Origin: a virus
Length of the DNA stretch: 64,000 bases
IMG/VR virus record: IMGVR_UViG_3300013738_000004
Coordinates: 1,931 to 65,930 of that record
Strand: one strand, 5' to 3'
Shown here: positions 8,216 to 43,378 of the stretch, piece after piece
How the letters are laid out: each line of letters begins with the position of its first letter
Position numbering within the stretch: the stretch's first letter is position 1
The notes under the pieces: generated by a model
Seen by the model: only the letters and a program-made list of their open reading frames with translations
What the model was told of the DNA's origin: nothing
The model's database searches: none
Made by a program: the position numbers and the translations under genes

Positions 8216-8308
8216 GCTTTCCTCAATAGTAGGCACCCCACCACACAGTTCCACACCTGGACCCGTGCGATGCACCAAACAGATGTGCTGTGGGTGAGGC
8301 GCGTTCGG

Positions 8309-8646: not shown

Positions 8647-9420
8647 CTAGGCGGCTTGTTGGCGGAGGGCCGCTTCGTAGTGGTCGACAAAGACGGCGAA
8701 TTCCCAGAGGTCTTTCTCCATCGCCTCAATGAACGCGTCGTCGCGCTTGACTTCGACCATCGTGAATTGCTTGCCGACCGATGCGAGCGCGGGGCAGTAC
8801 AGGCCGACGTGCCACCAGTTGCGACCGCAGAGCCACATCCCGCCAAGCGCCTGCTCCTGCACTTCGGAAACGTCGTGCTCAAGCACGATGGCGCGGAGTT
8901 TGTCGGGCGCGAGAAAGCATTTGTACTCGCTGCCGCCGTCCGGATCGATGAGCCCGTCGGCGCTACAGCCGAAGCGGCCATCTTCCGTGCGCACGAACCC
9001 GGCGCGCTTGACGAACAGACCGGTCAGGGCTTCGTGTTCCATGCGTGCCTCAGGCTCCAAATCCCGCCCGCGGCGCATTTGCCACGTCTCGAAGCCCTCA
9101 TCCAGTGGCGCACCGCTGATGCGCTCGACGGCCAGTCGAAAGGCGTAATCCTTCGCCACGTCCGACCAGTCGCCAACTTTCTCGCCTTTAAGAGCACGCT
9201 TGATGCCGTCTGCGCTGGGCGCAGTCTTGTACCCGGCAAACTCGGCGGCGGCCTTCTCCGTCATCCCGCCAATAACCGCATCCACATACTTCTGCTGGCG
9301 TTCGTCCAGGCAACCGACTTTCTTGCGCACGGTAGAGAACATGCTGGCCGTTATCACGCCCGCTCTTGCGCGGAACCATTCTTCTCCGCCTTGCGGGCAC
9401 TCGATAATCTCGACGCTCAT
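8647..9420 (-). CDS. YqaJ/lambda-exonuclease-family recombination nuclease
   Basis: QGGEEWFRARAGVITAS, GRDLEPEAR, GCSADGL, EYKC, VQEQALGGMW motifs. Confidence 0.9.
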   Translation of the reverse strand: MSVEIIECPQGGEEWFRARAGVITASMFSTVRKKVGCLDERQQKYVDAVIGGMTEKAAAEFAGYKTAPSADGIKRALKGEKVGDWSDVAKDYAFRLAVERISGAPLDEGFETWQMRRGRDLEPEARMEHEALTGLFVKRAGFVRTEDGRFGCSADGLIDPDGGSEYKCFLAPDKLRAIVLEHDVSEVQEQALGGMWLCGRNWWHVGLYCPALASVGKQFTMVEVKRDDAFIEAMEKDLWEFAVFVDHYEAALRQQAA

Positions 9421-11995: not shown

Positions 11996-12201
11996 TGCGC
12001 CTCCACTCGTTCCTTCGCCAACCAAGCCTCCAGCGCCGCCGATTCAACCGGCACAGGCAGGATTGCGCCGTGGTAATCCACGTATGCTTTGAGACTGCCG
12101 CCCGCGTCTTCGTAGATCCTGGATTCGTGTTCGGTCTCGCTAAGCAAGTGGTCCGATGGGTCGTCCATCAGATAAAGGCGGATTCGGATTGATGGGGTCA
12201 T
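11992..12201 (-). CDS. Phage hypothetical protein
   Basis: 69-aa coupled ORF. Confidence 0.6.
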   Translation of the reverse strand: MTPSIRIRLYLMDDPSDHLLSETEHESRIYEDAGGSLKAYVDYHGAILPVPVESAALEAWLAKERVEAQ

Positions 12202-12773
12202 GACGACTGCTCCTCGTCATCTGGCGAACGGAATGCCGCGAGGAACGTCTCGTCATCCGGCAGGCTGTCGAGCGGCCATGAGGCGGCAAACTTGATCGGG
12301 TGATACCCCGGCAAATCCCGGTCGGGCGGCACGCTGTAAAATCGATCGGCTGTTGTCAGTGGCTCACTGTGGCCCCGATACGCCTCGAAAGTGCCTTTGT
12401 CGAAGTCGGCCAGCCACGCCCACATGCACCCGACATCGCCCGCGTAGTCAACATCAATTCGAATCGGCGTCGGCTCTGTTGTGCTCTGGATCAGCGAGAG
12501 AATCTTCGCGCAGGTATCGCGACTCAGACTTGGGTAAAGCTGTGATGGCGCCTTGTTTTCAGCCTTCAGGCGCGCGTTGAAGTCGTCAATCTGCGCATCT
12601 GTCGGCTCAAACATAAGATCCAAGCCTGCGAAGAACTTCTCGCGATTCAATTCATCGCGTAGAAATGTAAGCGCCGTCAGTCCTTGACCGTCCGGATAGC
12701 CGTCCCACTGGCCGTATTGAGCGACCACATACTTACCATCCTTGAAAACCATCGTCAGATTTCTCGTGCCCAT
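12198..12773 (-). CDS. Phage hypothetical protein
   Basis: MGTR...VAQYGQWDGYP motif; AGGAG RBS. Confidence 0.8.
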   Translation of the reverse strand: MGTRNLTMVFKDGKYVVAQYGQWDGYPDGQGLTALTFLRDELNREKFFAGLDLMFEPTDAQIDDFNARLKAENKAPSQLYPSLSRDTCAKILSLIQSTTEPTPIRIDVDYAGDVGCMWAWLADFDKGTFEAYRGHSEPLTTADRFYSVPPDRDLPGYHPIKFAASWPLDSLPDDETFLAAFRSPDDEEQSS

Positions 12774-12947
12774 CTTCGCACTCCTGAATTAGTTGAATGT
12801 TGCCTTGGCGGATTGCAGCGACGCTCACTGGAATTCATCAGGGCTCTCCCGCTTGCCGAAGGCGGGAGAAAATCATTCGGTCTCGCGCACAGCCTGTTGC
12901 ATCCGAGGATCTCGCAGGCTGGAGCGCTGCTCCTGGCGGGTTGCTCG

Positions 12948-13475
12948 CTACGCTTCCAGCGCGCCCTTTTGCATCCCTCGCAACATGGATAGCTTCGCAA
13001 TCGCATCCATGTTTTCCTTGCGCTGGGCGTCCGTCAGTTGATCTTGACGAACGTTTTTGAGCGTCAGCGCGGCGCGCTTGTATGCCTTCGCTGCTTCGCG
13101 CTCAAACTTCTCCTGGGCTAGCTCAGTTTGCTCGCCAGGGGGCACAACACGGTAGCCTTCGCCGAATACAACGCTCAGAAAAATCTGGTGATTTTCCAGA
13201 AGTTCAGCGCGGAAAGCCTCCATATTGCGAAGCCATTCAAACTGACGCTCCTGAAAATCTTCCGCTGTCATCGGGCCAGCGATTGGTTCCATGCCGAAGT
13301 GCATTTCGAGCCACGACTTGCTAACCACATCACCTTCGCCGAAACCCTCGTCAAAGAAGTCCTTTACGGCCTGCCTCCATTCGGGGAACAGGCTGACATT
13401 TTCTTCTTCATCAAGGCCGCATTTACGCAGGCCTTCGCGGGCGCTTTGAATTGCCTCCAATACGTCTCTCCTCAT
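12948..13475 (-). CDS. Protein coupled to the RAMP gene (putative accessory/effector)
   Basis: ATG 13475 lies 2 nt after the RAMP stop; GGAG RBS; helical C-terminus. Confidence 0.75.
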   Translation of the reverse strand: MRRDVLEAIQSAREGLRKCGLDEEENVSLFPEWRQAVKDFFDEGFGEGDVVSKSWLEMHFGMEPIAGPMTAEDFQERQFEWLRNMEAFRAELLENHQIFLSVVFGEGYRVVPPGEQTELAQEKFEREAAKAYKRAALTLKNVRQDQLTDAQRKENMDAIAKLSMLRGMQKGALEA

Positions 13476-13477
13476 AA

Positions 13478-14047
13478 TCACTCCACCGTGACCGAGAAGC
13501 GGCCAAAGCGCGGACGGTACTCGCACACGCCGATGAGTGCGCCAGCGTCAGCCAGTGTCTTTTTGACCTCGGACATGTTCAATACGTCCGGGTTGAATGC
13601 AACCTCGAGCTCGCACGCCCATTCCGAGAACACGGGGCGGTAGCGCATCACCTTGGCGGTGCCAACCTTCACGCCTCGGCAGTCCACAAACTGGGTATCT
13701 TCCCAAAGCTTTTCGGGCGTCTTCGGACCTGCATGGATCAGCTTTGCGCGATCCGTCAGGACTAGCGCGCCTCGCGTCCATGCGGTGCCGAGCTTTTGGA
13801 GCTTCGCTCCAGCCTTGAACGTGGCATCGAAGTTCGCTCCGGGCACGTAGATGCCAGTCGATTCGCTGAAATAGATGCCGCTCAGGAATTCCGATTTGGC
13901 GATGGCAAGATGGTCGTCGTCCGTTTTCTTGCGCTTGCCTGTCAATTCCTTATGTGCTTTAGTTTCTGGCAGAAGCGGATTCGCCAGGCGATCCGAGTGC
14001 ATCATGAGGGGCGACGTGCCAACGATTTTCAATTTCAAAACTTCCAT
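13478..14047 (-). CDS. Stand-alone RAMP/Cas7-like (RRM-fold) RNA-binding protein; putative Vipr-type guide-binding protein
   Basis: N-terminal LKIVGTSPLMMH, central GIYVPGANF (cf. IPGSS of Csm3/Cas7 RAMPs) and C-terminal G-rich loop GALIGVCEYRPRFGRFSV; no other cas genes nearby. Confidence 0.75.
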   Translation of the reverse strand: MEVLKLKIVGTSPLMMHSDRLANPLLPETKAHKELTGKRKKTDDDHLAIAKSEFLSGIYFSESTGIYVPGANFDATFKAGAKLQKLGTAWTRGALVLTDRAKLIHAGPKTPEKLWEDTQFVDCRGVKVGTAKVMRYRPVFSEWACELEVAFNPDVLNMSEVKKTLADAGALIGVCEYRPRFGRFSVTVE

Positions 14048-14060
14048 GATGGTTTCCTTG

Positions 14061-14623
14061 TAGAGAACATCCCATACCCGGCCTTACCACGACATACCGC
14101 TCCCAAGCGAAACCTATCGGAGCCAACCGTTGCCGTAGTCTGCCCAGCCAATGATGCAAGCGCATCGGGAAAGCCGAAGCCTTCCCACTGCGTTCGCAGT
14201 CCGAAACAGAGCCTGCCTCGACACACCGCGCCTTGATGCAACGTGCCCTGCCACTGGGCGCTATTCGCACCGCACTGGTTTGCTCCAGTGCGCTGAAAAC
14301 AGCGGTTGCCTCGCCTCGCCTCACCTAACCGTGCCTAACCTGGGCTCGCCTAACCACCCCCAGATCACCACCGATGCTATTCGCACCGATTAGCCTTTCG
14401 GCTAACCGCTGAAAACAGCCCATGCCTTGACTTGCCTTGCCACGCCTGGCCTGACCCCGACTTGCCGCGCTATGCCTTGCCGCGTCTGGGCTTGTCACAC
14501 CAAACCGTGCCACTGGCGCTATTCGCACCGGCAAACCCAAAGGCTTGCCACTGAGAACAGTCCATACCCCATCAAAGCTCACCTCAGCTCGACATACGGA
14601 GTCATGCCACTCCATGCCTCACC
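14061..14623 (-). ncRNA. Five GGY-NN pentamer arrays separated by conserved hairpins (putative guide-RNA locus)
   Basis: Plus-strand NN-RCC 5-nt periodicity at 14069-14149, 14208-14252, 14306-14365, 14417-14511, 14559-14623; GCTATTCGCACCG exact at 14260, 14376 and 14518, each followed by a hairpin and CTGA(A/G)AACAG. Confidence 0.8.
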
Positions 14624-14629
14624 GCTTTC

Positions 14630-14773
14630 TCATGCCCGATCCTTCCACGAAAGTGTCCGCGCACGCTGACTCCGGTCTGGTATGTCCCGGCGTTCATCGG
14701 CGCCTTGGAAAAAGAGAATGATCAGGTAGTCAAGGAAGGCGACGATCAGCGCCCAAATTAGCCAGGTTGGCAT
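14630..14773 (-). CDS. Small membrane protein (47 aa)
   Basis: Own translation MPTWLIWALIVAFLDYLIILFF...; GGAG RBS; ends just before the first array. Confidence 0.55.
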   Translation of the reverse strand: MPTWLIWALIVAFLDYLIILFFQGADERRDIPDRSQRARTLSWKDRA

Positions 14774-14782
14774 GGCTATCTC

Positions 14783-15007
14783 CTAAATTTCATCCGCGTC
14801 GATTGCCTCAAGCAGATCGAGGTCGTCTGTCGTCAGTGGTGAGCACTCGGCGCAGACCAGATCAGGATCGCCGCGCATCATGCGAAGGCCCGCAAGAGCG
14901 GCAGCGTGCGAAGACAGGGTGCCTACCCAGCGGTCACCCGCGTAGAGTGTTCCGCTCACAATCGTCATCGGTTGACTCCAGTCCATGTCAGCACCCTCCC
15001 AGCTCAT
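14783..15007 (-). CDS. Phage hypothetical protein
   Basis: ORF in the operon. Confidence 0.55.
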   Translation of the reverse strand: MSWEGADMDWSQPMTIVSGTLYAGDRWVGTLSSHAAALAGLRMMRGDPDLVCAECSPLTTDDLDLLEAIDADEI

Positions 15008-15125
15008 CGCGAAGGCCCGCAGCGATCAACGCCGCAGCGATTTCCCGCAACAGGTGATTCGTCAGCGCGCCGTGCGGGTGTGGCATCGCGTTCAACTCAA
15101 TCAGGTCTTTGGCCAGGGTGCTCAT
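14988..15125 (-). CDS. Small hypothetical protein
   Basis: MSTLAKDLIEL...; GGAG RBS. Confidence 0.5.
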   Translation of the reverse strand: MSTLAKDLIELNAMPHPHGALTNHLLREIAAALIAAGLRDELGGC

Positions 15126-15153
15126 GTCTGTCTCCTGTCCGCTAACGCGGAGG

Positions 15154-15498
15154 TTAGGCGGCCTTGCACATCTCATCGATCAGACCGAATACGATCTTGT
15201 CGGCCGCATCCCGGTCGTATTCGTCAAGCCCGCCATCCTCGAAAAATGAGCCTTCGACGGCGCCGCATTTGACCAGCGCGCGGTAGAGGTCGAACTCCCA
15301 ACCGCTATTCCCGAACGGGCGCTTGGAGCTAAATCCCTCGCCTTCGGCCCACATCGTGCTCAGCAGTTCGCCGAGGTATTCTCGGATGCTGATTTCTCGG
15401 TTGAGGTCGTCGCATTGGAATGTGACGTCCAGCAGCGCCGGGTTTTCGCAGGCCATCGGCGCAGGGACATAGCGCACGCCGTCGATAATCACGTTCAT
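15154..15498 (-). CDS. Phage hypothetical protein
   Basis: KRPFGNSGWEFDLYRAL motif; start at ATG 15498 with AGGAG RBS. Confidence 0.75.
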   Translation of the reverse strand: MNVIIDGVRYVPAPMACENPALLDVTFQCDDLNREISIREYLGELLSTMWAEGEGFSSKRPFGNSGWEFDLYRALVKCGAVEGSFFEDGGLDEYDRDAADKIVFGLIDEMCKAA

Positions 15499-15514
15499 GG
15501 CTTCTCCTATCCGG

Positions 15515-15765
15515 TTACGCCGCCTGCCGCATCGCAACGCGGACCAGGCTGTTCTGAAGCTTCTCCTGCTGCTTCTTGCCGAAGTGCGGGGTGTACTTGC
15601 TGCGCGAGGCGCGGCGAACGTCGACATTCGGGGTCGAAGGTTGCGGCACGTAAAGCGTCTGACCGTTCGGCGCGAGAACCTTCTTTTGCACCGGGATTTC
15701 TAGGAAGTGAAGGTTGCGCTTTGCGAGGATTTCAGCGCGGTGCGTTGGTGATGTTTGCGGCTCAT
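15515..15765 (-). pseudogene. Frameshifted small gene (1-nt deletion or sequencing error)
   Basis: The coupled ATG (MSRKHHQRT) stops after 21 codons, while another frame continues RAEILAKRNLHFLEIPV...MRQAA* with no start codon; total length 251 nt. Confidence 0.5.
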
Positions 15766-16721
15766 GCTGCGTCCTTTTCTTCAGATTTCGTTTCGACCCA
15801 AAAGCCGGTCATCAGATTGATGGGCTTCGCTTTGGCAATAACGCGCCCGTAAACCGACCACTTCGGCAGGCGCAGTCGCAGGGCGGCAAAGATTCCATAG
15901 TCCTCACCGGCTTCGATGCCCAAACCGGCTTCGATGCCCTCACCGGCTTCGATGCCCGAACCGGCTTTGATGCCCCAACCGGCTTCGATGCCCGAACCGG
16001 CTTTGATGCCCTCACCGGCTTCGATGCCCTCACCGGCTTTGATGCCCGAACCGGCTTTGATGCCCCAACCGGCTTCGATGCCCGAACCGGCTTTGATGCC
16101 CTCACCGGCTTCGATGCCCGAACCGGCTTTGATGCCCTCACCGGCTTCGATGCCCAAACCGGCTTTGATGCCCCAACCGGCTTCGATGCCCCAACCGGCT
16201 TTGATGCCCGAACCGGCTTCGATGCCCTCACCGGCTTCGATGCCCGAACCGGCTTCGATGCCCAAACCGGCTTCGATGCCCTCACCGGCTTCGATGCCCA
16301 AACCGGCTTTGATGCCCCAACCGGCTTCGATGCCCCAACCGGCTTTGATGCCCGAACCGGCTTCGATGCCCTCACCGGCTTCGATGCCCAAACCGGCTTT
16401 GATGCCCTCACCGGCTTCGATGCCCGAACCGGCTTTGATGCCCGAACCGGCACGCAACGAAAATTCGATCTTGATTGAGCCTGTCACGCGAATCGATCCG
16501 GCGAACACGAAGCGCTTTTTCTCAAGCGTCCCGACTTCCAGCACATCATCAGTTTTACCGAAAGCGTTCAGCAGCCAGCACGCGTCGTCGAAACGATCGT
16601 CGTCGCAGAGCTTGTCGAGAATTTCCTGATACTCGCCGCCTTCCGGGAAATTGCGGAGGTACCACTCGTAGCCATCCGAACAGGGATGCTTTTCCTTCAG
16701 CAGTTCTTTGGTGATCTTCAC
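15762..16721 (-). CDS. Hexapeptide-repeat (AGxGI[K/E])30 beta-solenoid-like protein
   Basis: GTG start with GGAGAAG RBS; N-terminal domain KITKELLKEKHPCSDGYEWY. Confidence 0.85.
   Translation of the reverse strand: MKITKELLKEKHPCSDGYEWYLRNFPEGGEYQEILDKLCDDDRFDDACWLLNAFGKTDDVLEVGTLEKKRFVFAGSIRVTGSIKIEFSLRAGSGIKAGSGIEAGEGIKAGLGIEAGEGIEAGSGIKAGWGIEAGWGIKAGLGIEAGEGIEAGLGIEAGSGIEAGEGIEAGSGIKAGWGIEAGWGIKAGLGIEAGEGIKAGSGIEAGEGIKAGSGIEAGWGIKAGSGIKAGEGIEAGEGIKAGSGIEAGWGIKAGSGIEAGEGIEAGLGIEAGEDYGIFAALRLRLPKWSVYGRVIAKAKPINLMTGFWVETKSEEKDAA
15912..16451 (-). repeat. 30 x 18-bp coding tandem repeat
   Basis: Unit GCC GGT (TCG/TTG/TGG/GAG) GGC ATC (A/G)AA. Confidence 0.95.
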
Positions 16722-17323
16722 GGCTTCTCCACGTAAATAGGACAACGAAACTTGATGGGCAGGATTGGGGGTTGGGGGATGCTCAACACTCACGGAGGCG
16801 CGCTGCGCTATCTCAGGGAGAGGGATGAAGGATCGCTGTTTCGGTGGATCTAGCACCGGCAGACGCCTGATCCATGCAACCGTAGCTGCATGAGGTACGC
16901 TGCCCAGCGGTGGTCCGCGTCTCTTTGAGGGGGAACGCAGTGCGCTTTCGTGAATGCTGCTACTCCGCAGGACGCTGGCGACACCCTTGTTATCGGCTCC
17001 AGCTGCCCTGCGGACTTCCGCGACGCTTCACAGATCCTGTCTGCTACGCAATCGCGGGCGCTGTCCTTACTACGCGAGGACTTGCTTTATTCCGCGCCCT
17101 TTCGGGAATGGTTCGATGTTCTGTGTCTCGTGTGGACCATGACCACATACGCCCGGTTGCTCGCTTTCGCGTCCCGGGTCAAAGACTTCAGTTGTCCAGC
17201 CTGTCGGCTAGGGGCCCGAGGGCGCCTAAAGATCATTCCGCTATCCCGGCTCTGCCGGAGCGGTTACTGATACTGCTGTGCTATCCGCACTAGCTTGGCG
17301 ATGGGCCAAGCTGCTGAGGACAG

Positions 17324-17788
17324 TTACTTCTTTGCGAGACCAGTTCCGCTGCAAACGCCACACGTCATATCCCACGCCTCTTCGGGGTCGCGAAACAGAA
17401 CGGTTCCTTTCCCGTCGCATTCCTCGCAGGCATCATGTGAGCGATCGTGCTCGATGGCCTTGTTCGGATCAGCGGTGCGCCAGTCTGGCCAGACGCGGCC
17501 TTCGTTCTTCGCCTGTTTGGCAACGAGCGCTTCAATGATCTGCTGAGGCGAACCACCTGCGCGCCATGCACCATCAAGCGCGAGAATCACGACGTCGATC
17601 CATTCGGTGAGATCGGTCGGATCAGCCTCGATCTCGTTCAGCTCTTTGCGGATATGGTCGATCACGCCCTTAGCGCGCGATCCGGGGCCAAACGTCTGCT
17701 CGGACCACTCACGCTGTCGAAGGAGGTGCCCATACAGACTAAATGCCGACGCCTCCTGTTCTTTCTTGTACTGAGGAACATCCATCAC
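17324..17788 (-). CDS. dATP/dGTP pyrophosphohydrolase-like (DUF550, MazG-like) protein
   Basis: QREWSEQTFGP..R..GVIDHIRKELNEI...EWIDVVILALDGAWRAG...KNEGRVWPDWR; C-terminal Zn finger. Confidence 0.8.
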   Translation of the reverse strand: MMDVPQYKKEQEASAFSLYGHLLRQREWSEQTFGPGSRAKGVIDHIRKELNEIEADPTDLTEWIDVVILALDGAWRAGGSPQQIIEALVAKQAKNEGRVWPDWRTADPNKAIEHDRSHDACEECDGKGTVLFRDPEEAWDMTCGVCSGTGLAKK

Positions 17789-18819: not shown

Positions 18820-19224
18820 TTAAACAGAATTGCCGTTATCCAGAGTAGGCCCGCTGTTTTTTCGCTGCTGGCGCTCCATCTCCTCTTGTATCGCCCGATG
18901 GATGAATTCCTTCGTTTCCGGAGTCACGCCGTAGTCTCTGTTGCGCGTCGAATCACAATTGCGATACAGCTCGCGCACCTGGTCAGCCAGCACGGGGCTG
19001 ATCTCATCGATCTTCACCCCGAGCACTTTCGCGAACTGGCCCACTGCGAATAGGTTTAGTTTTGATTTTCCTTTCAGGTAGTGGCCGACGTTTGCCTGAG
19101 ATCCCATGTCGTAATCGGCGCCGAACTTCTCCTGCGTCATCCCCTCGGGACGCTTCTCATTCCATAGGCGATCCAGACGCTTTGCGTCCTCGATCTGCCA
19201 GTCCTCTAGCTTCTGTTTGACCAT
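18820..19224 (-). CDS. cI: CI-like repressor (HTH only, no S24 peptidase domain)
   Basis: DAKRLDRLW...MTQEKFGADYDMGSQANVGHYLKG...FAKVLGV..DEISP; divergent from cro. Confidence 0.88.
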   Translation of the reverse strand: MVKQKLEDWQIEDAKRLDRLWNEKRPEGMTQEKFGADYDMGSQANVGHYLKGKSKLNLFAVGQFAKVLGVKIDEISPVLADQVRELYRNCDSTRNRDYGVTPETKEFIHRAIQEEMERQQRKNSGPTLDNGNSV

Positions 19225-19706: not shown

Positions 19707-20132
19707 GTGTCCACGCCAGTGTCAACTGAAGTCACTCAGTTCGAATTACCGCTGATGTGCCGCATGAACCGGCCCCAGCCCGTCGAGCAATCTGTAGTCG
19801 AATCAATTACTTGCGAGTCTGGGCTGATCCGGAAATCGATCGAACTCTCGAAGTTCAAGTTCCTGGAGAAAACCTATGCCGGAACGCTGGGTTTGTCGCC
19901 ATCCCAGTTCTCGAAGATCAAGAACGGTCGCGATGGCGCGGGCAAGGTTTGGCACATGCCGATCACTGCCGTAGCCGCGTTCGAGTGTTTAGTCGGACAT
20001 ACGCTGATGACACAGTGGATCGAGCATCAACGCGATTTGCTGCTTGACGACGAGATGAGAGAGATCTGGGAGCTTCAGCAGCGCATCGAGGAACTGAAGA
20101 TGAAGAAGGCCAAGGTTGGGAGGGCGGCGTGA
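19707..20132 (+). CDS. CII-like regulator (positional call)
   Basis: Follows cro; HTH-like AGTLGLSPSQFSKIKNG; start uncertain. Confidence 0.6.
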   Translation: MSTPVSTEVTQFELPLMCRMNRPQPVEQSVVESITCESGLIRKSIELSKFKFLEKTYAGTLGLSPSQFSKIKNGRDGAGKVWHMPITAVAAFECLVGHTLMTQWIEHQRDLLLDDEMREIWELQQRIEELKMKKAKVGRAA

Positions 20133-42511: not shown

Positions 42512-43378
42512 ATGGCGGACTTAGCTGATTGTCAAGATTCTTTGGTCTCCCTGATCGCCAGCACGCTTTACCCCAACGGAACCAGTCAGCCATCCGCTCC
42601 AGGCATTCCGGTCCGCGTCTATGCCGGCTGGCCCACGGCAGCGCAACTCGACGCCGATCTGCTGGGTGGAACTGCCCACGTCTCCGTCTTCAACCGCGAA
42701 TCAAAGAACTCGACGCGCTACCAGCTTGCGCAGGTCGATCCGGTCGTCACTGCACCGCTTCTGACGCTGACGATCTCGGGCCGCACGGTCACGGTAGGCG
42801 GCACAGTAGCCGCGGGCGTCAATACTGCCGTCATCGTCGGCACGAACGCATTCACGTACCAGACGGTCGCAAATGACACGCTCAGCACGATTGCAACGGC
42901 GCTCGCGAACAGCATCAATCTGACCTATCCCGGCACATCCGCATCCGGCGCAGTCATCACGTTGCCGAACAGTGGTCCAGCGATCAACGCCGCTAGAGTC
43001 GGTGGCAGCGCATCGCAGTCGATCGAAGTTGGCCGCGTCGAACAGGTCTTCCAGATCACGGTCTGGGCGAACACGCCGGCCAATCGCAAGGCCATCGCAT
43101 CGCTGATCGTGCCGACGCTGATGCAAAGCCACTTCCTGACGCTCGCCGATGGCTCTGCCGCGCGCCTGATCCTCAAGGGCCAGCGCGACGACGATGTGCC
43201 GCAGAAAGAACTGCTGTACCGCCGCGACATCATGGTCACCGTTGAGTACGTCGAGACGGCAAGCGTGACCGCTACGACAGTGGTCGATATCGTCCAGAAC
43301 ACGTCGGTTGGCGTGAATGGATTCAACGGCACGACGAATTCGCAGCTTTACCCGAACACGACAACCGTCAACACATAG
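42512..43378 (+). CDS. Tail terminator / completion-like protein
   Basis: Upstream of the sheath; VYAGWP and QVFQITVWA motifs. Confidence 0.7.
   Translation: MADLADCQDSLVSLIASTLYPNGTSQPSAPGIPVRVYAGWPTAAQLDADLLGGTAHVSVFNRESKNSTRYQLAQVDPVVTAPLLTLTISGRTVTVGGTVAAGVNTAVIVGTNAFTYQTVANDTLSTIATALANSINLTYPGTSASGAVITLPNSGPAINAARVGGSASQSIEVGRVEQVFQITVWANTPANRKAIASLIVPTLMQSHFLTLADGSAARLILKGQRDDDVPQKELLYRRDIMVTVEYVETASVTATTVVDIVQNTSVGVNGFNGTTNSQLYPNTTTVNT

What the first reader, a model, noticed from the sequence alone, without database searches (positions are those of the whole stretch)
12948..14623. Phage-borne RAMP/Cas7-like gene plus GGY-NN pentamer arrays: a putative non-CRISPR RNA-guided system
Seen in the sequence: a 189-aa gene (13478-14047) with all three RAMP hallmarks (N-terminal strand with TSPLMMH, central YVPG helix, C-terminal G-rich loop). 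Directly upstream on the same strand lie five blocks of strict 5-nt periodicity (GGY constant, NN variable), bounded by conserved hairpins. There is no cas1, cas2, cas6 or canonical CRISPR repeat. Established knowledge: Cas7-type RAMPs polymerise along guide RNAs with a fixed nucleotide period. Inference: each block is a guide RNA in which the protein grips the GGY triplets and the NN pairs are displayed for target recognition. From memory, this matches the recently reported VIPR (Viral Interference Programmable Repeat) systems, which use a gapped NN code against competing phages; I cannot verify that here. The locus is in the pL early-left operon, where inter-phage conflict genes usually sit.
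Basis: partly seen in the sequence, partly recalled or inferred. Interest (0 to 1): 0.97.

Follow-up and report, generated by a model that had tools for sequence, protein, structure and literature searches.

The report
Prophage VIPR guide-RNA silencing system
This soil prophage carries a complete VIPR system, a CRISPR-related RNA-guided DNA-silencing system first described in 2026, so the kind is known; new here is that one guide spells the catalytic motif of the ImmA/IrrE protease gene that rival prophages need to wake up, and another matches rival VIPR loci.

Summary
On the minus strand, 12948-14625 is a type II VIPR locus: five GGY-NN pentamer guide blocks, then vipr (13478-14047), then vap1 (12948-13475).

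- **Vipr:** it aligns end to end with the solved SUSP1 Vipr (PDB 36pp, E 2.7e-45). Its model matches only CRISPR Cas7-type subunits.
- **Relatives:** 92 of 101 homologues carry same-strand pentamer arrays within 1.3 kb.
- **Tails:** the guide tails are covarying hairpins.
- **Status:** VIPR is already in print (three 2026 bioRxiv preprints), and this scan has met it in at least 42 other genomes. This is a new member of a known kind.

Decoding the guides by the published one-base-skip rule added three things.
- **Guide 5** has at least 108 exact 20/20 matches in IMG/VR; the reversed control has 0. All matches encode R-F-T-I-A-H-E-L-G-H, the zinc site of ImmA/IrrE (Peptidase_M78) genes. The provirus has no such gene.
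- **Guide 4** matches the repeat/tail junction of two related VIPR arrays 16/16, but its own copy only 14/16.
- **A relative's guide** matches this vipr gene 22/26.

Guides 2 and 3 have no target found. Expression and silencing are untested.

The parts
14509..14625 (-). vrRNA1: 13 NN-GGY units (14561-14625) plus tail A (about 14509-14560). It starts right after the stop codon of the upstream 47-aa ORF.
   Evidence: Units were parsed. The tail is in alignment A4, whose consensus has 18 pairs, 5 of them with compensatory changes. The guide's only exact IMG/VR hit extends to 25/26 in an acyl-carrier-protein gene.
14367..14508 (-). vrRNA2: 18 units (14419-14508) plus tail A (about 14367-14418). 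This is the longest guide; 11 of its 18 triplets are perfect GGY.
   Evidence: No target was found.
14251..14362 (-). vrRNA3: 12 units (14303-14362) plus tail A (about 14251-14302).
   Evidence: No target rose above chance.
14145..14249 (-). vrRNA4: 8 units (14210-14249) plus a different three-hairpin tail B (about 14145-14209).
   Evidence: The second hairpin keeps its pairing with a different sequence in L023 and L118. The guide matches L023:2686-2708 and L118:5536-5558 at 16/16, at the repeat/tail-B junction of those arrays.
14181..14203 (-). The locus's own copy of the vrRNA4 target site, inside tail B. It has two mismatches at informative positions (14/16).
   Evidence: and direct reading of the sequence.
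14048..14135 (-). vrRNA5: 13 units (14071-14135), then a truncated tail remnant that runs into the vipr ribosome-binding site and ATG. The core 10 units are the anti-ImmA guide.
   Evidence: There are at least 108 exact 20/20 matches in IMG/VR, all encoding RFTIAHELGH in Peptidase_M78 genes; the reversed control gives 0. The NN bases are identical in L023 while 6 scaffold bases differ.
13478..14047 (-). vipr: 189-aa RAMP protein.
   Evidence: PDB 36pp_D 'SUSP1 Vipr protein', E 2.7e-45 over residues 1-188. PHROG 4652, E 1.4e-71. AlphaFold2 pLDDT 94.8. The top 50 Foldseek PDB hits are all chains of CRISPR type III/VII effector complexes or Csm3. Residues H17, K33, R137 and R178 are invariant across 32 homologues.
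13932..13969 (-). Site in vipr codons 27-39 (PETKAHKELTGKR) that a guide from relative L048 matches at 22/26.
   Evidence: The same guide scores 21-23/26 at the same in-frame position in 36 relatives, but 17/26 in L048's own vipr.
12948..13475 (-). vap1: 175-aa accessory gene. Its ATG lies 2 nt after the vipr stop codon.
   Evidence: PHROG 5926. It is 50% identical to the gene downstream of vipr in Pseudomonas phage Medea1, and 30% identical (E 2e-13) to the one in Felixounavirus HY02. AlphaFold2 pLDDT 92.4; there are weak Foldseek matches (E 0.02-0.5), mostly to winged-helix DNA-binding domains.

Best explanation
This is a type II VIPR (Viral Interference Programmable Repeat) locus of a temperate phage integrated in a soil proteobacterium.

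**Proposed mechanism, by homology to SUSP1.** The leftward early transcript carries five guide RNAs (vrRNAs), each a run of NN-GGY pentamers. Three of them are capped by a conserved structured 3' tail. Vipr protomers polymerise one per pentamer, bury each GGY, and present the NN pairs. The NN pairs then read double-stranded DNA as NNxNNx, skipping one base per unit. Bound complexes block transcription, and Vap1, a probable winged-helix protein, assists. These steps were shown for SUSP1 and are inferred here.

**What the sequence shows here.**
- Guide 5 spells, on codon positions 1 and 2, the HEXXH zinc-site motif R-F-T-I-A-H-E-L-G-H of ImmA/IrrE anti-repressor protease genes found in many other phages.
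- Guide 4 spells the repeat/tail junction of closely related rival VIPR arrays, while mismatching its own copy.

**Inference.** The phage uses guide 5 to keep co-resident or incoming ImmR/ImmA-type temperate phages from inducing. It uses guide 4 to shut down rivals' VIPR operons.
For: **Protein.**
- Vipr matches the solved SUSP1 Vipr at E 2.7e-45 over its full length.
- The RNA- and DNA-contact residues named in 10.64898/2026.04.26.720927 are kept or conservatively changed: H17, K33, R137 and R178 are kept, D becomes E176, and W becomes Y177.
- The model has pLDDT 94.8, and its top 50 PDB fold matches are all chains of CRISPR type III/VII effector complexes or Csm3.

**RNA.**
- The 64 units show strong G/G/Y conservation with free NN bases, and 0 of 1000 shuffles reach the observed runs.
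- The tail consensus has 18 pairs, 5 of them compensatory, across 8 copies.
- Against the 93%-identical relative L023, the tails are conserved while the NN pairs of guides 1-4 differ.

**Family link.** 92 of 101 homologues have same-strand arrays within 1.3 kb, against 6 on the opposite strand. Vap1 is homologous to the accessory genes of Medea1 and of a SUSP1-family phage.

**Guide 5 target.**
- The 10-unit pattern gives at least 108 exact hits in viral contigs; the reversed control gives 0.
- All hits encode RFTIAHELGH with the skipped base at the codon wobble position.
- 10 of 10 tested ORFs are Peptidase_M78, and 29 of 65 upstream neighbours are XRE HTH proteins.
- The provirus itself has no M78 gene.

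**Guide 4 target.** Of 17 exact hits in the whole collection, 2 lie in related VIPR arrays. The self copy scores 14/16.
Against: - **No expression data.** No RNA run holds the locus, and no promoter or terminator was called on the minus strand.
- **Guide 5 is atypical.** Only 5 of its 13 triplets are perfect GGY, it lacks the conserved tail, and it abuts the vipr ribosome-binding site. It may bind Vipr poorly or be a relic; in SUSP1, disturbing the GGY motifs abolished silencing.
- **Guide 4 is short.** It has only 16 informative bases, and its 14/16 self match would pass the preprint's 80% threshold.
- **Guides 2 and 3**, which have some of the best GGY conformity, have no identifiable target.
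- **Host and co-residents are unknown.** Nothing shows that an ImmA-bearing phage meets this one.
- **Two contact residues differ.** The SUSP1 residues E71 and M72, which contact the pyrimidine, are A71 and N72 here.
Confidence: 0.93

Rival explanations
1. The locus is a genuine VIPR system, but guide 5 is a decaying relic or merely the 5' leader of the vipr mRNA. It has lost its tail and half of its GGY triplets. Its match to ImmA genes would then record a past target, not a current activity.
For: Only 5 of 13 triplets are perfect GGY, and there is a 1-nt register slip. The tail is reduced to a remnant that differs between the window and L023. In SUSP1, perturbing the GGY motifs abolished silencing.
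Against: All 20 informative bases are identical between the window and L023, while 6 scaffold bases in the same 10 units changed. That pattern fits selection on the code rather than neutral decay. G at the first triplet position is kept in all 10 core units and the pyrimidine in 9. The preprint itself notes frequent internal degeneracy in vrRNAs.
Confidence: 0.2
2. The guide-target matches (ImmA motif, rival arrays, ACP gene) are by-products of searching short codon-periodic patterns in huge databases. On this view the true targets are unknown.
For: - Guide 4's 17 exact hits are about what 16 specified bases give by chance in this collection.
- The 8-unit seed of guide 3 (15 hits) and the 10-unit seed of guide 2 (5 hits) did not extend beyond chance.
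- Guide 1 has a single hit, in an AT-rich contig.
- A similar breadth claim on other DNA was later marked down.
Against: - Guide 5 gives at least 108 hits for 20 specified bases, against 0 for the reversed pattern. All hits lie in one protein family, at one motif and in one frame.
- Two of guide 4's 17 hits fall on the homologous element of this locus's nearest relatives.
Confidence: 0.05
3. The system mainly serves the lysogen as superinfection immunity against incoming temperate phages (host-beneficial defence), rather than locking resident rival prophages.
For: Plasmid-borne VIPR with cro-targeting guides protected E. coli from lambda by five orders of magnitude. The locus sits in a prophage among early and accessory genes.
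Against: ImmA is needed for induction of an established prophage, not obviously for lytic growth of an incoming phage. Whether this leftward block is transcribed in the lysogen is unknown. The two roles are not exclusive.
Confidence: 0.25

Closest known systems
Type II VIPR systems: Escherichia phage SUSP1 and the Pseudomonas fulva prophage clade (bioRxiv 10.64898/2026.04.26.720920; structures in 10.64898/2026.04.26.720927, PDB 36pp)
   Same: - The Vipr protein is homologous: 43% identical to the Vipr of Felixounavirus HY02, a SUSP1-family phage, and aligned full-length to the solved SUSP1 Vipr (E 2.7e-45).
- A vap1 homologue sits directly downstream.
- The guides are YNNGG/GGY-NN pentamers followed by a structured 3' tail.
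- There are no cas1 or cas2 genes and no CRISPR array.
- The locus is phage-borne.
- Targets are decoded by the 1-nt skip rule with the skipped base at the codon wobble position.
- The gene order, guides then vipr then vap1, is the order in which the text lists the cloned P. fulva locus.
   Different: - There are five guides, all upstream of vipr. SUSP1 has one upstream and three downstream, and the 67-80%-identical relatives found here have theirs downstream of vap.
- The tail sequence differs: here it is a nested two-helix stem-loop, and no pseudoknot was tested.
- Guide 4 has a second tail type, and guide 5 has no intact tail.
- Guide 2 has 18 units, against the stated 9-16.
- The second G of the triplet is relaxed (42/64).
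- The G-loop residues are E/Y instead of D/W.
vrRNA- and vipr-targeting guides of SUSP1-family phages (bioRxiv 10.64898/2026.10.15.759431)
   Same: - Guide 4's footprint spans a repeat/tail junction of rival arrays and scores lower on its own copy (14/16 against 16/16).
- A relative's guide (L048) reads early vipr codons in this and 36 other loci, but mismatches its own gene (17/26).
   Different: These are soil prophages with about 58% GC, not Enterobacteriaceae phages. The guides sit in a VIPR-positive phage rather than as solo guides in a vipr-null phage. Nothing was tested experimentally.
SUSP1 guide aimed at the satellite excision recombinase (same preprint)
   Same: One guide reads a conserved, essential coding segment in codon register, so synonymous changes cannot escape it. 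Guides of other clade members found here also spell a YTRKSTDEGL-type coding segment, which I read from memory as a serine-recombinase motif.
   Different: The target here is the HEXXH zinc site of ImmA/IrrE (Peptidase_M78) anti-repressor proteases. The main text of the three preprints does not mention this target class; their supplementary tables could not be read. The matched genes occur in contigs spanning 28-70% GC.
CRISPR class 1 backbone subunits (Cas7/Csm3/Cmr4)
   Same: The predicted fold matches these subunits, with Foldseek E from 2.6e-5 and TM about 0.5. The protein polymerises along a guide at a fixed period (polymerisation is inferred by homology to SUSP1).
   Different: No cas1, cas2, cas6 or CRISPR repeats are present. 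The period is 5 nt with three bases buried, rather than 6 nt with one base flipped. The guide is noncontiguous. Sequence identity to Cas7 proteins is only about 10%.

Membership tests
VIPR (type II) | Vipr protein homologous to the characterised Vipr | tested here: met
   phmmer against PDB: 36pp_D 'SUSP1 Vipr protein', E 2.7e-45, residues 1-188 aligned to 1-189. 43% identity to the Vipr of Felixounavirus HY02.
VIPR (type II) | Minimal RAMP fold (single RRM core, glycine-rich loop, thumb) | tested here: met
   AlphaFold2 model with pLDDT 94.8 and pTM 0.87. The top 50 Foldseek PDB matches are all chains of CRISPR type III/VII effector complexes or Csm3. The thumb and G-loop were assigned only by alignment to SUSP1 residues, not inspected in 3D.
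VIPR (type II) | Residues that read GGY and the skipped base (SUSP1 H17, K33, R138, D177, W178, R179, E71/M72) | tested here: inconclusive
   H17, K33, R137 and R178 are kept and invariant or nearly invariant across 32 homologues. D becomes E176 and W becomes Y177, both conservative. E71/M72 are A71/N72, not conserved.
VIPR (type II) | Adjacent same-strand arrays of YNNGG (GGY-NN) pentamers with hypervariable NN | tested here: met
   Five blocks with 64 units; 0 of 1000 shuffles reach the observed runs. The NN bases differ from the 93% relative in guides 1-4 while the tails are conserved. 92 of 101 homologues have such arrays.
VIPR (type II) | Conserved structured 3' tail after each repeat tract | tested here: met
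   Met for guides 1-3: 18 pairs, 5 compensatory, over 8 copies. Guide 4 has a different three-hairpin tail with one covarying hairpin. Guide 5 has only a remnant, so the feature is not met for that unit.
VIPR (type II) | vap1 accessory gene next to vipr, predicted DNA-binding | tested here: met
   Homologous to the downstream genes of Medea1 (50%, E 4e-51) and HY02 (30%, E 2e-13). The winged-helix likeness is weak only, with Foldseek E 0.02-0.5.
VIPR (type II) | Natural targets found by the 1-nt skip rule, with the skipped base at codon wobble and no self-targeting | tested here: met
   Guide 5: at least 108 exact matches in one gene family, in frame, with 0 for the control. No M78 gene in the provirus, and no self score above the shuffled-guide maximum for any guide; guide 4's 14/16 equals it.
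VIPR (type II) | vrRNAs are expressed, processed and bound by Vipr; the complex represses transcription | not testable with these tools
   No RNA run holds the locus. This needs small-RNA sequencing, pull-down and reporter assays.
CRISPR-Cas class 1 | cas1/cas2 adaptation genes and a repeat-spacer array | tested here: not met
   PF01867 and PF09827 have no match in the 70.5-kb provirus. Tandem Repeats Finder on 12000-17000 reports only the pentamers and an 18-bp coding repeat. There is no PADLOC hit.

The most novel reading that the evidence does not exclude
A single vipr-proximal guide without an intact tail is a broad-spectrum anti-induction weapon. Its code is conserved between relatives while its scaffold drifts. 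By reading only codon positions 1 and 2 of the invariant HEXXH zinc site (RFTIAHELGH) of ImmA/IrrE anti-repressor proteases, it could silence the induction switch of very many unrelated ImmR/ImmA-type prophages. At least 108 viral contigs match, spanning 28-70% GC. Rivals would be locked in lysogeny while this phage grows. Its position in the vipr leader might also couple guide loading to vipr translation.
Probability: 0.4. Interest if true: 0.6.

Novelty: new member of a known kind. Interest (0 to 1): 0.38.

Why it matters
The system itself is already described, so the locus mainly adds one more well-supported VIPR example. This one comes from a soil prophage lineage whose nearest cultured relative is Pseudomonas phage Medea1.

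Its value lies in the decoded guides.
- **New target class.** They give a concrete, testable prediction: RNA-guided silencing of the ImmA/IrrE protease gene that releases prophage repression. The readable text of the preprints does not name this target.
- **Catalytic motifs as targets.** Guide 5 suggests that VIPR guides can be aimed at catalytic motifs shared by whole protein families, so one guide could cover many rivals.
- **Conflict within one clade.** The locus both attacks relatives' arrays and is itself matched by a relative's vipr-targeting guide.

If guide 5 works without an intact tail, that would relax a presumed requirement for vrRNA design.

Tried and rejected
**Target searches that found nothing beyond chance**
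- Guide 2, units 6-15, exact in viral contigs: 0 hits.
- Guide 2, units 9-18, exact in metagenome contigs: 5 hits that extend only to 22-25/36, which is chance level.
- Guide 2, units 3-17 with up to 3 mismatches in 301 genomes of the genus of L005 (Pseudomonas costantinii): 0 hits.
- Guide 3, units 2-11: 0 hits. Units 1-8: 15 hits that extend only to 17-20/24, which is chance level.
- Guide 1: a single exact hit, L229, an acyl-carrier-protein gene on a 36% GC contig. It extends to 25/26. I keep it as a candidate only.

**Self-targeting.** No guide scores above the shuffled-guide maximum in the provirus; guide 4's 14/16 equals it.

**Host identification failed**
- The left flank encodes a TPR/GT9-type protein whose best matches in 301 Pseudomonadota genomes are only 40-50% identical.
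- Sequencing runs that hold the locus are soil metagenomes with at most 40% of the sampled words, and none is RNA.

**Other negatives**
- Rfam has no family for the tails.
- Pfam and PADLOC have no model for Vipr or for Vap1.
- The promoter and terminator scan gave nothing usable on the minus strand.
- The weak period-5 signal near 42975 contains no pentamer array.
- The preprint's supplementary target tables are not held, so I could not check whether ImmA genes are listed there.
Full report
**Observation.** All features lie on the minus strand.
- Upstream of it, read 5' to 3' from 14625 down to 14071, are five blocks in a 5-nt register.
- I parsed 64 NN-GGY units: 13, 18, 12, 8 and 13. The triplet is G in 60/64, G in 42/64 and a pyrimidine in 56/64. 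The NN pairs use 15 of the 16 dinucleotides.
- Runs of 6 or more conforming units hold 65 units, against a mean of 3.7 and a maximum of 26 in 1000 shuffles.
- The 21 strongest period-5 G signals of the whole window, and 24 of the top 25, fall inside this locus.
- A caller run over the whole window finds arrays only here, apart from one weak 6-unit run at 8235-8264, and none on the plus strand.
- 'Strict' is too strong: only 34 triplets are perfect GGY, and block 5 slips register once.

**The protein.**
- Pfam and PADLOC have no model for it; PHROGs places it in the unannotated family 4652.
- Against PDB sequences it matches 'SUSP1 Vipr protein' (36pp_D) at E 2.7e-45 over its whole length.
- The residues that the cryo-EM preprint assigns to reading G1, G2, Y3 and the skipped target base are mostly kept. 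H17, K33, R137 and R178 are invariant or nearly so in 32 homologues. D177 becomes E and W178 becomes Y. E71/M72 are not kept.
- An AlphaFold2 model (pLDDT 94.8) finds only chains of CRISPR type III/VII effector complexes or Csm3 among its top 50 PDB matches. That library copy predates the Vipr entry, so this is an independent check of the RAMP fold.

**The accessory gene.**
- The true start is the ATG at 13475, 2 nt after the vipr stop codon, giving 175 aa.
- It is 50% identical to the gene after vipr in Pseudomonas phage Medea1, and 30% identical (E 2e-13) to the one in a SUSP1-family Felixounavirus. It is therefore vap1.
- Its model (pLDDT 92.4) resembles winged-helix DNA-binding domains only weakly. 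That agrees with the preprint's description but does not prove it.

**The RNA tails.**
- Blocks 1-3 are each followed by CTGTTYTCAG, a hairpin, and GGTGCGAATAGC.
- Eight copies from the window and two relatives give a consensus of 18 pairs. The inner hairpin has 5 pairs with compensatory changes, and the outer helix pairs CUGUU with AAUAG.
- Block 4 has a different three-hairpin tail. Its middle hairpin keeps pairing with unrelated sequence in L023 and L118.
- Block 5 keeps only the first bases of a tail and runs into the vipr ribosome-binding site.
- Rfam has no matching family.

**Relatives.**
- Back-translated searches gave 101 loci.
- 92 have same-strand pentamer arrays within 1.3 kb of vipr, and 6 have any on the other strand. 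Arrays lie only upstream in 40, only downstream (after vap) in 44, and on both sides in 8.
- Relatives at 67-80% identity carry their arrays downstream. Only this locus and its 93% relative L023 among the close ones have them upstream.
- Aligned to L023, the tails are conserved, the NN pairs of guides 1-4 differ, and guide 5 is nearly identical.

**What is known.** VIPR is described in three 2026 preprints.
- Vipr polymerises one protomer per YNNGG repeat.
- The NN pairs read DNA with one skipped base per unit.
- The complex silences transcription.
- Natural targets are rival phages, satellites and other VIPR loci.
- The text lists the cloned P. fulva type II locus as vrRNA1-3, vipr and vap1, the order seen here.
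- This scan has already met VIPR in at least 42 other genomes.

**Targets: guide 5.**
The same pattern read backwards gives 0.
- Every match encodes, on the opposite strand and in frame, R-F-T-I-A-H-E-L-G-H, with the skipped base at the wobble position.
- 10 of 10 tested ORFs are Peptidase_M78 (ImmA/IrrE).
- 29 of 65 same-strand upstream neighbours are XRE-type HTH proteins. This is the ImmR/ImmA layout as I know it from ICEBs1, recalled from memory and not checked in a paper.
- The matched contigs span 28-70% GC.
- The provirus has no M78 gene.
- Between the window and L023, all 20 informative bases are the same while 6 scaffold bases changed.

**Targets: guide 4.**
- It has 16 informative bases and 17 exact hits in the whole collection, about what chance gives for 16 specified bases.
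- Two of those hits are the repeat/tail-B junction of L023 and L118.
- Its own copy at 14181-14203 scores 14/16.
- This is the pattern the October preprint reports for vrRNA-targeting guides.

**Targets: the reverse direction.** A 13-unit guide of relative L048 matches vipr codons 27-39 at 22/26 here. It scores 21-23/26 in 36 relatives and 17/26 in L048's own gene.

**Targets: the rest.** Guide 1 has one candidate, an acyl-carrier-protein gene at 25/26. Guides 2 and 3 have none.

**Context.**
- The record is a 70.5-kb IMG/VR provirus from soil.
- The integrase (610-1734), a YqaJ-type exonuclease (8647-9420) and the VIPR locus all point left.
- A repressor-like gene (18820-19224) and the switch to rightward genes (from 19707, with an Ant-like gene at 20129) lie about 5 kb upstream.
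- The 'early-left operon' placement is therefore a reasonable reading of the layout, not a demonstrated transcript.

**Verdict.** The locus is a new member of a published kind. The added content is specific target predictions, above all the ImmA zinc-site guide, together with two unusual guide architectures. Function remains inferred by homology.

Noticed in passing
window 15762-16856 (-): A 364-aa ORF contains about 30 tandem 18-bp units (TRF: 15906-16451, period 18, 30.3 copies, 88% matches) encoding AGxGI(K/E) repeats. It has no Pfam family. Another first-reader note already covers it.
   Followed up: no
L002-L102 (relatives): The guide array switches sides within one Vipr clade. It lies downstream of vap in the 67-80%-identical relatives and upstream of vipr in this window and L023. 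Across all loci, 40 have it only upstream, 44 only downstream and 8 on both sides.
   Followed up: partly
L065:2745, L067:2855, L076:2617 (guides) against the ImmA-bearing loci L121-L228: Guides of other VIPR loci in this family match a coding segment that reads (A)VYTRKSTDEGL at 88-92% of informative bases. I read this from memory as a serine-recombinase catalytic-serine motif; it was not checked against a family model. L082 and L083 match IIVVYKIDRLT. If the reading holds, it echoes the published recombinase targeting.
   Followed up: partly
L048:4074-4138 (guide) against window 13932-13969: A relative's guide reads vipr codons 27-39 (PETKAHKELTGKR) in this and 36 other loci at 21-23/26, but scores only 17/26 in its own vipr. 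This looks like vipr-targeting with self-avoidance inside a soil prophage clade.
   Followed up: yes
L104 (Pseudomonas phage Medea1, NC_074658.1 6092-11658): In Medea1 the vipr-vap pair sits as an insertion between the tail genes K and I, next to its own HTH, Arc and Rha regulator genes. It is not in an early-left block.
   Followed up: no
window 14630-14773 (-): A 47-aa hydrophobic ORF ends 4 nt before the first pentamer of guide 1. It has no family match.
   Followed up: no
window 17324-17788 (-): A dATP/dGTP pyrophosphohydrolase-family gene (PF04447, E 3.6e-27) lies in the same leftward block.
   Followed up: no
L229:6349-6576 (-): A 76-aa acyl-carrier-protein gene (PP-binding, E 6.7e-14) on a 36% GC viral contig is the only exact IMG/VR match to guide 1, and it extends to 25/26.
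   Followed up: partly
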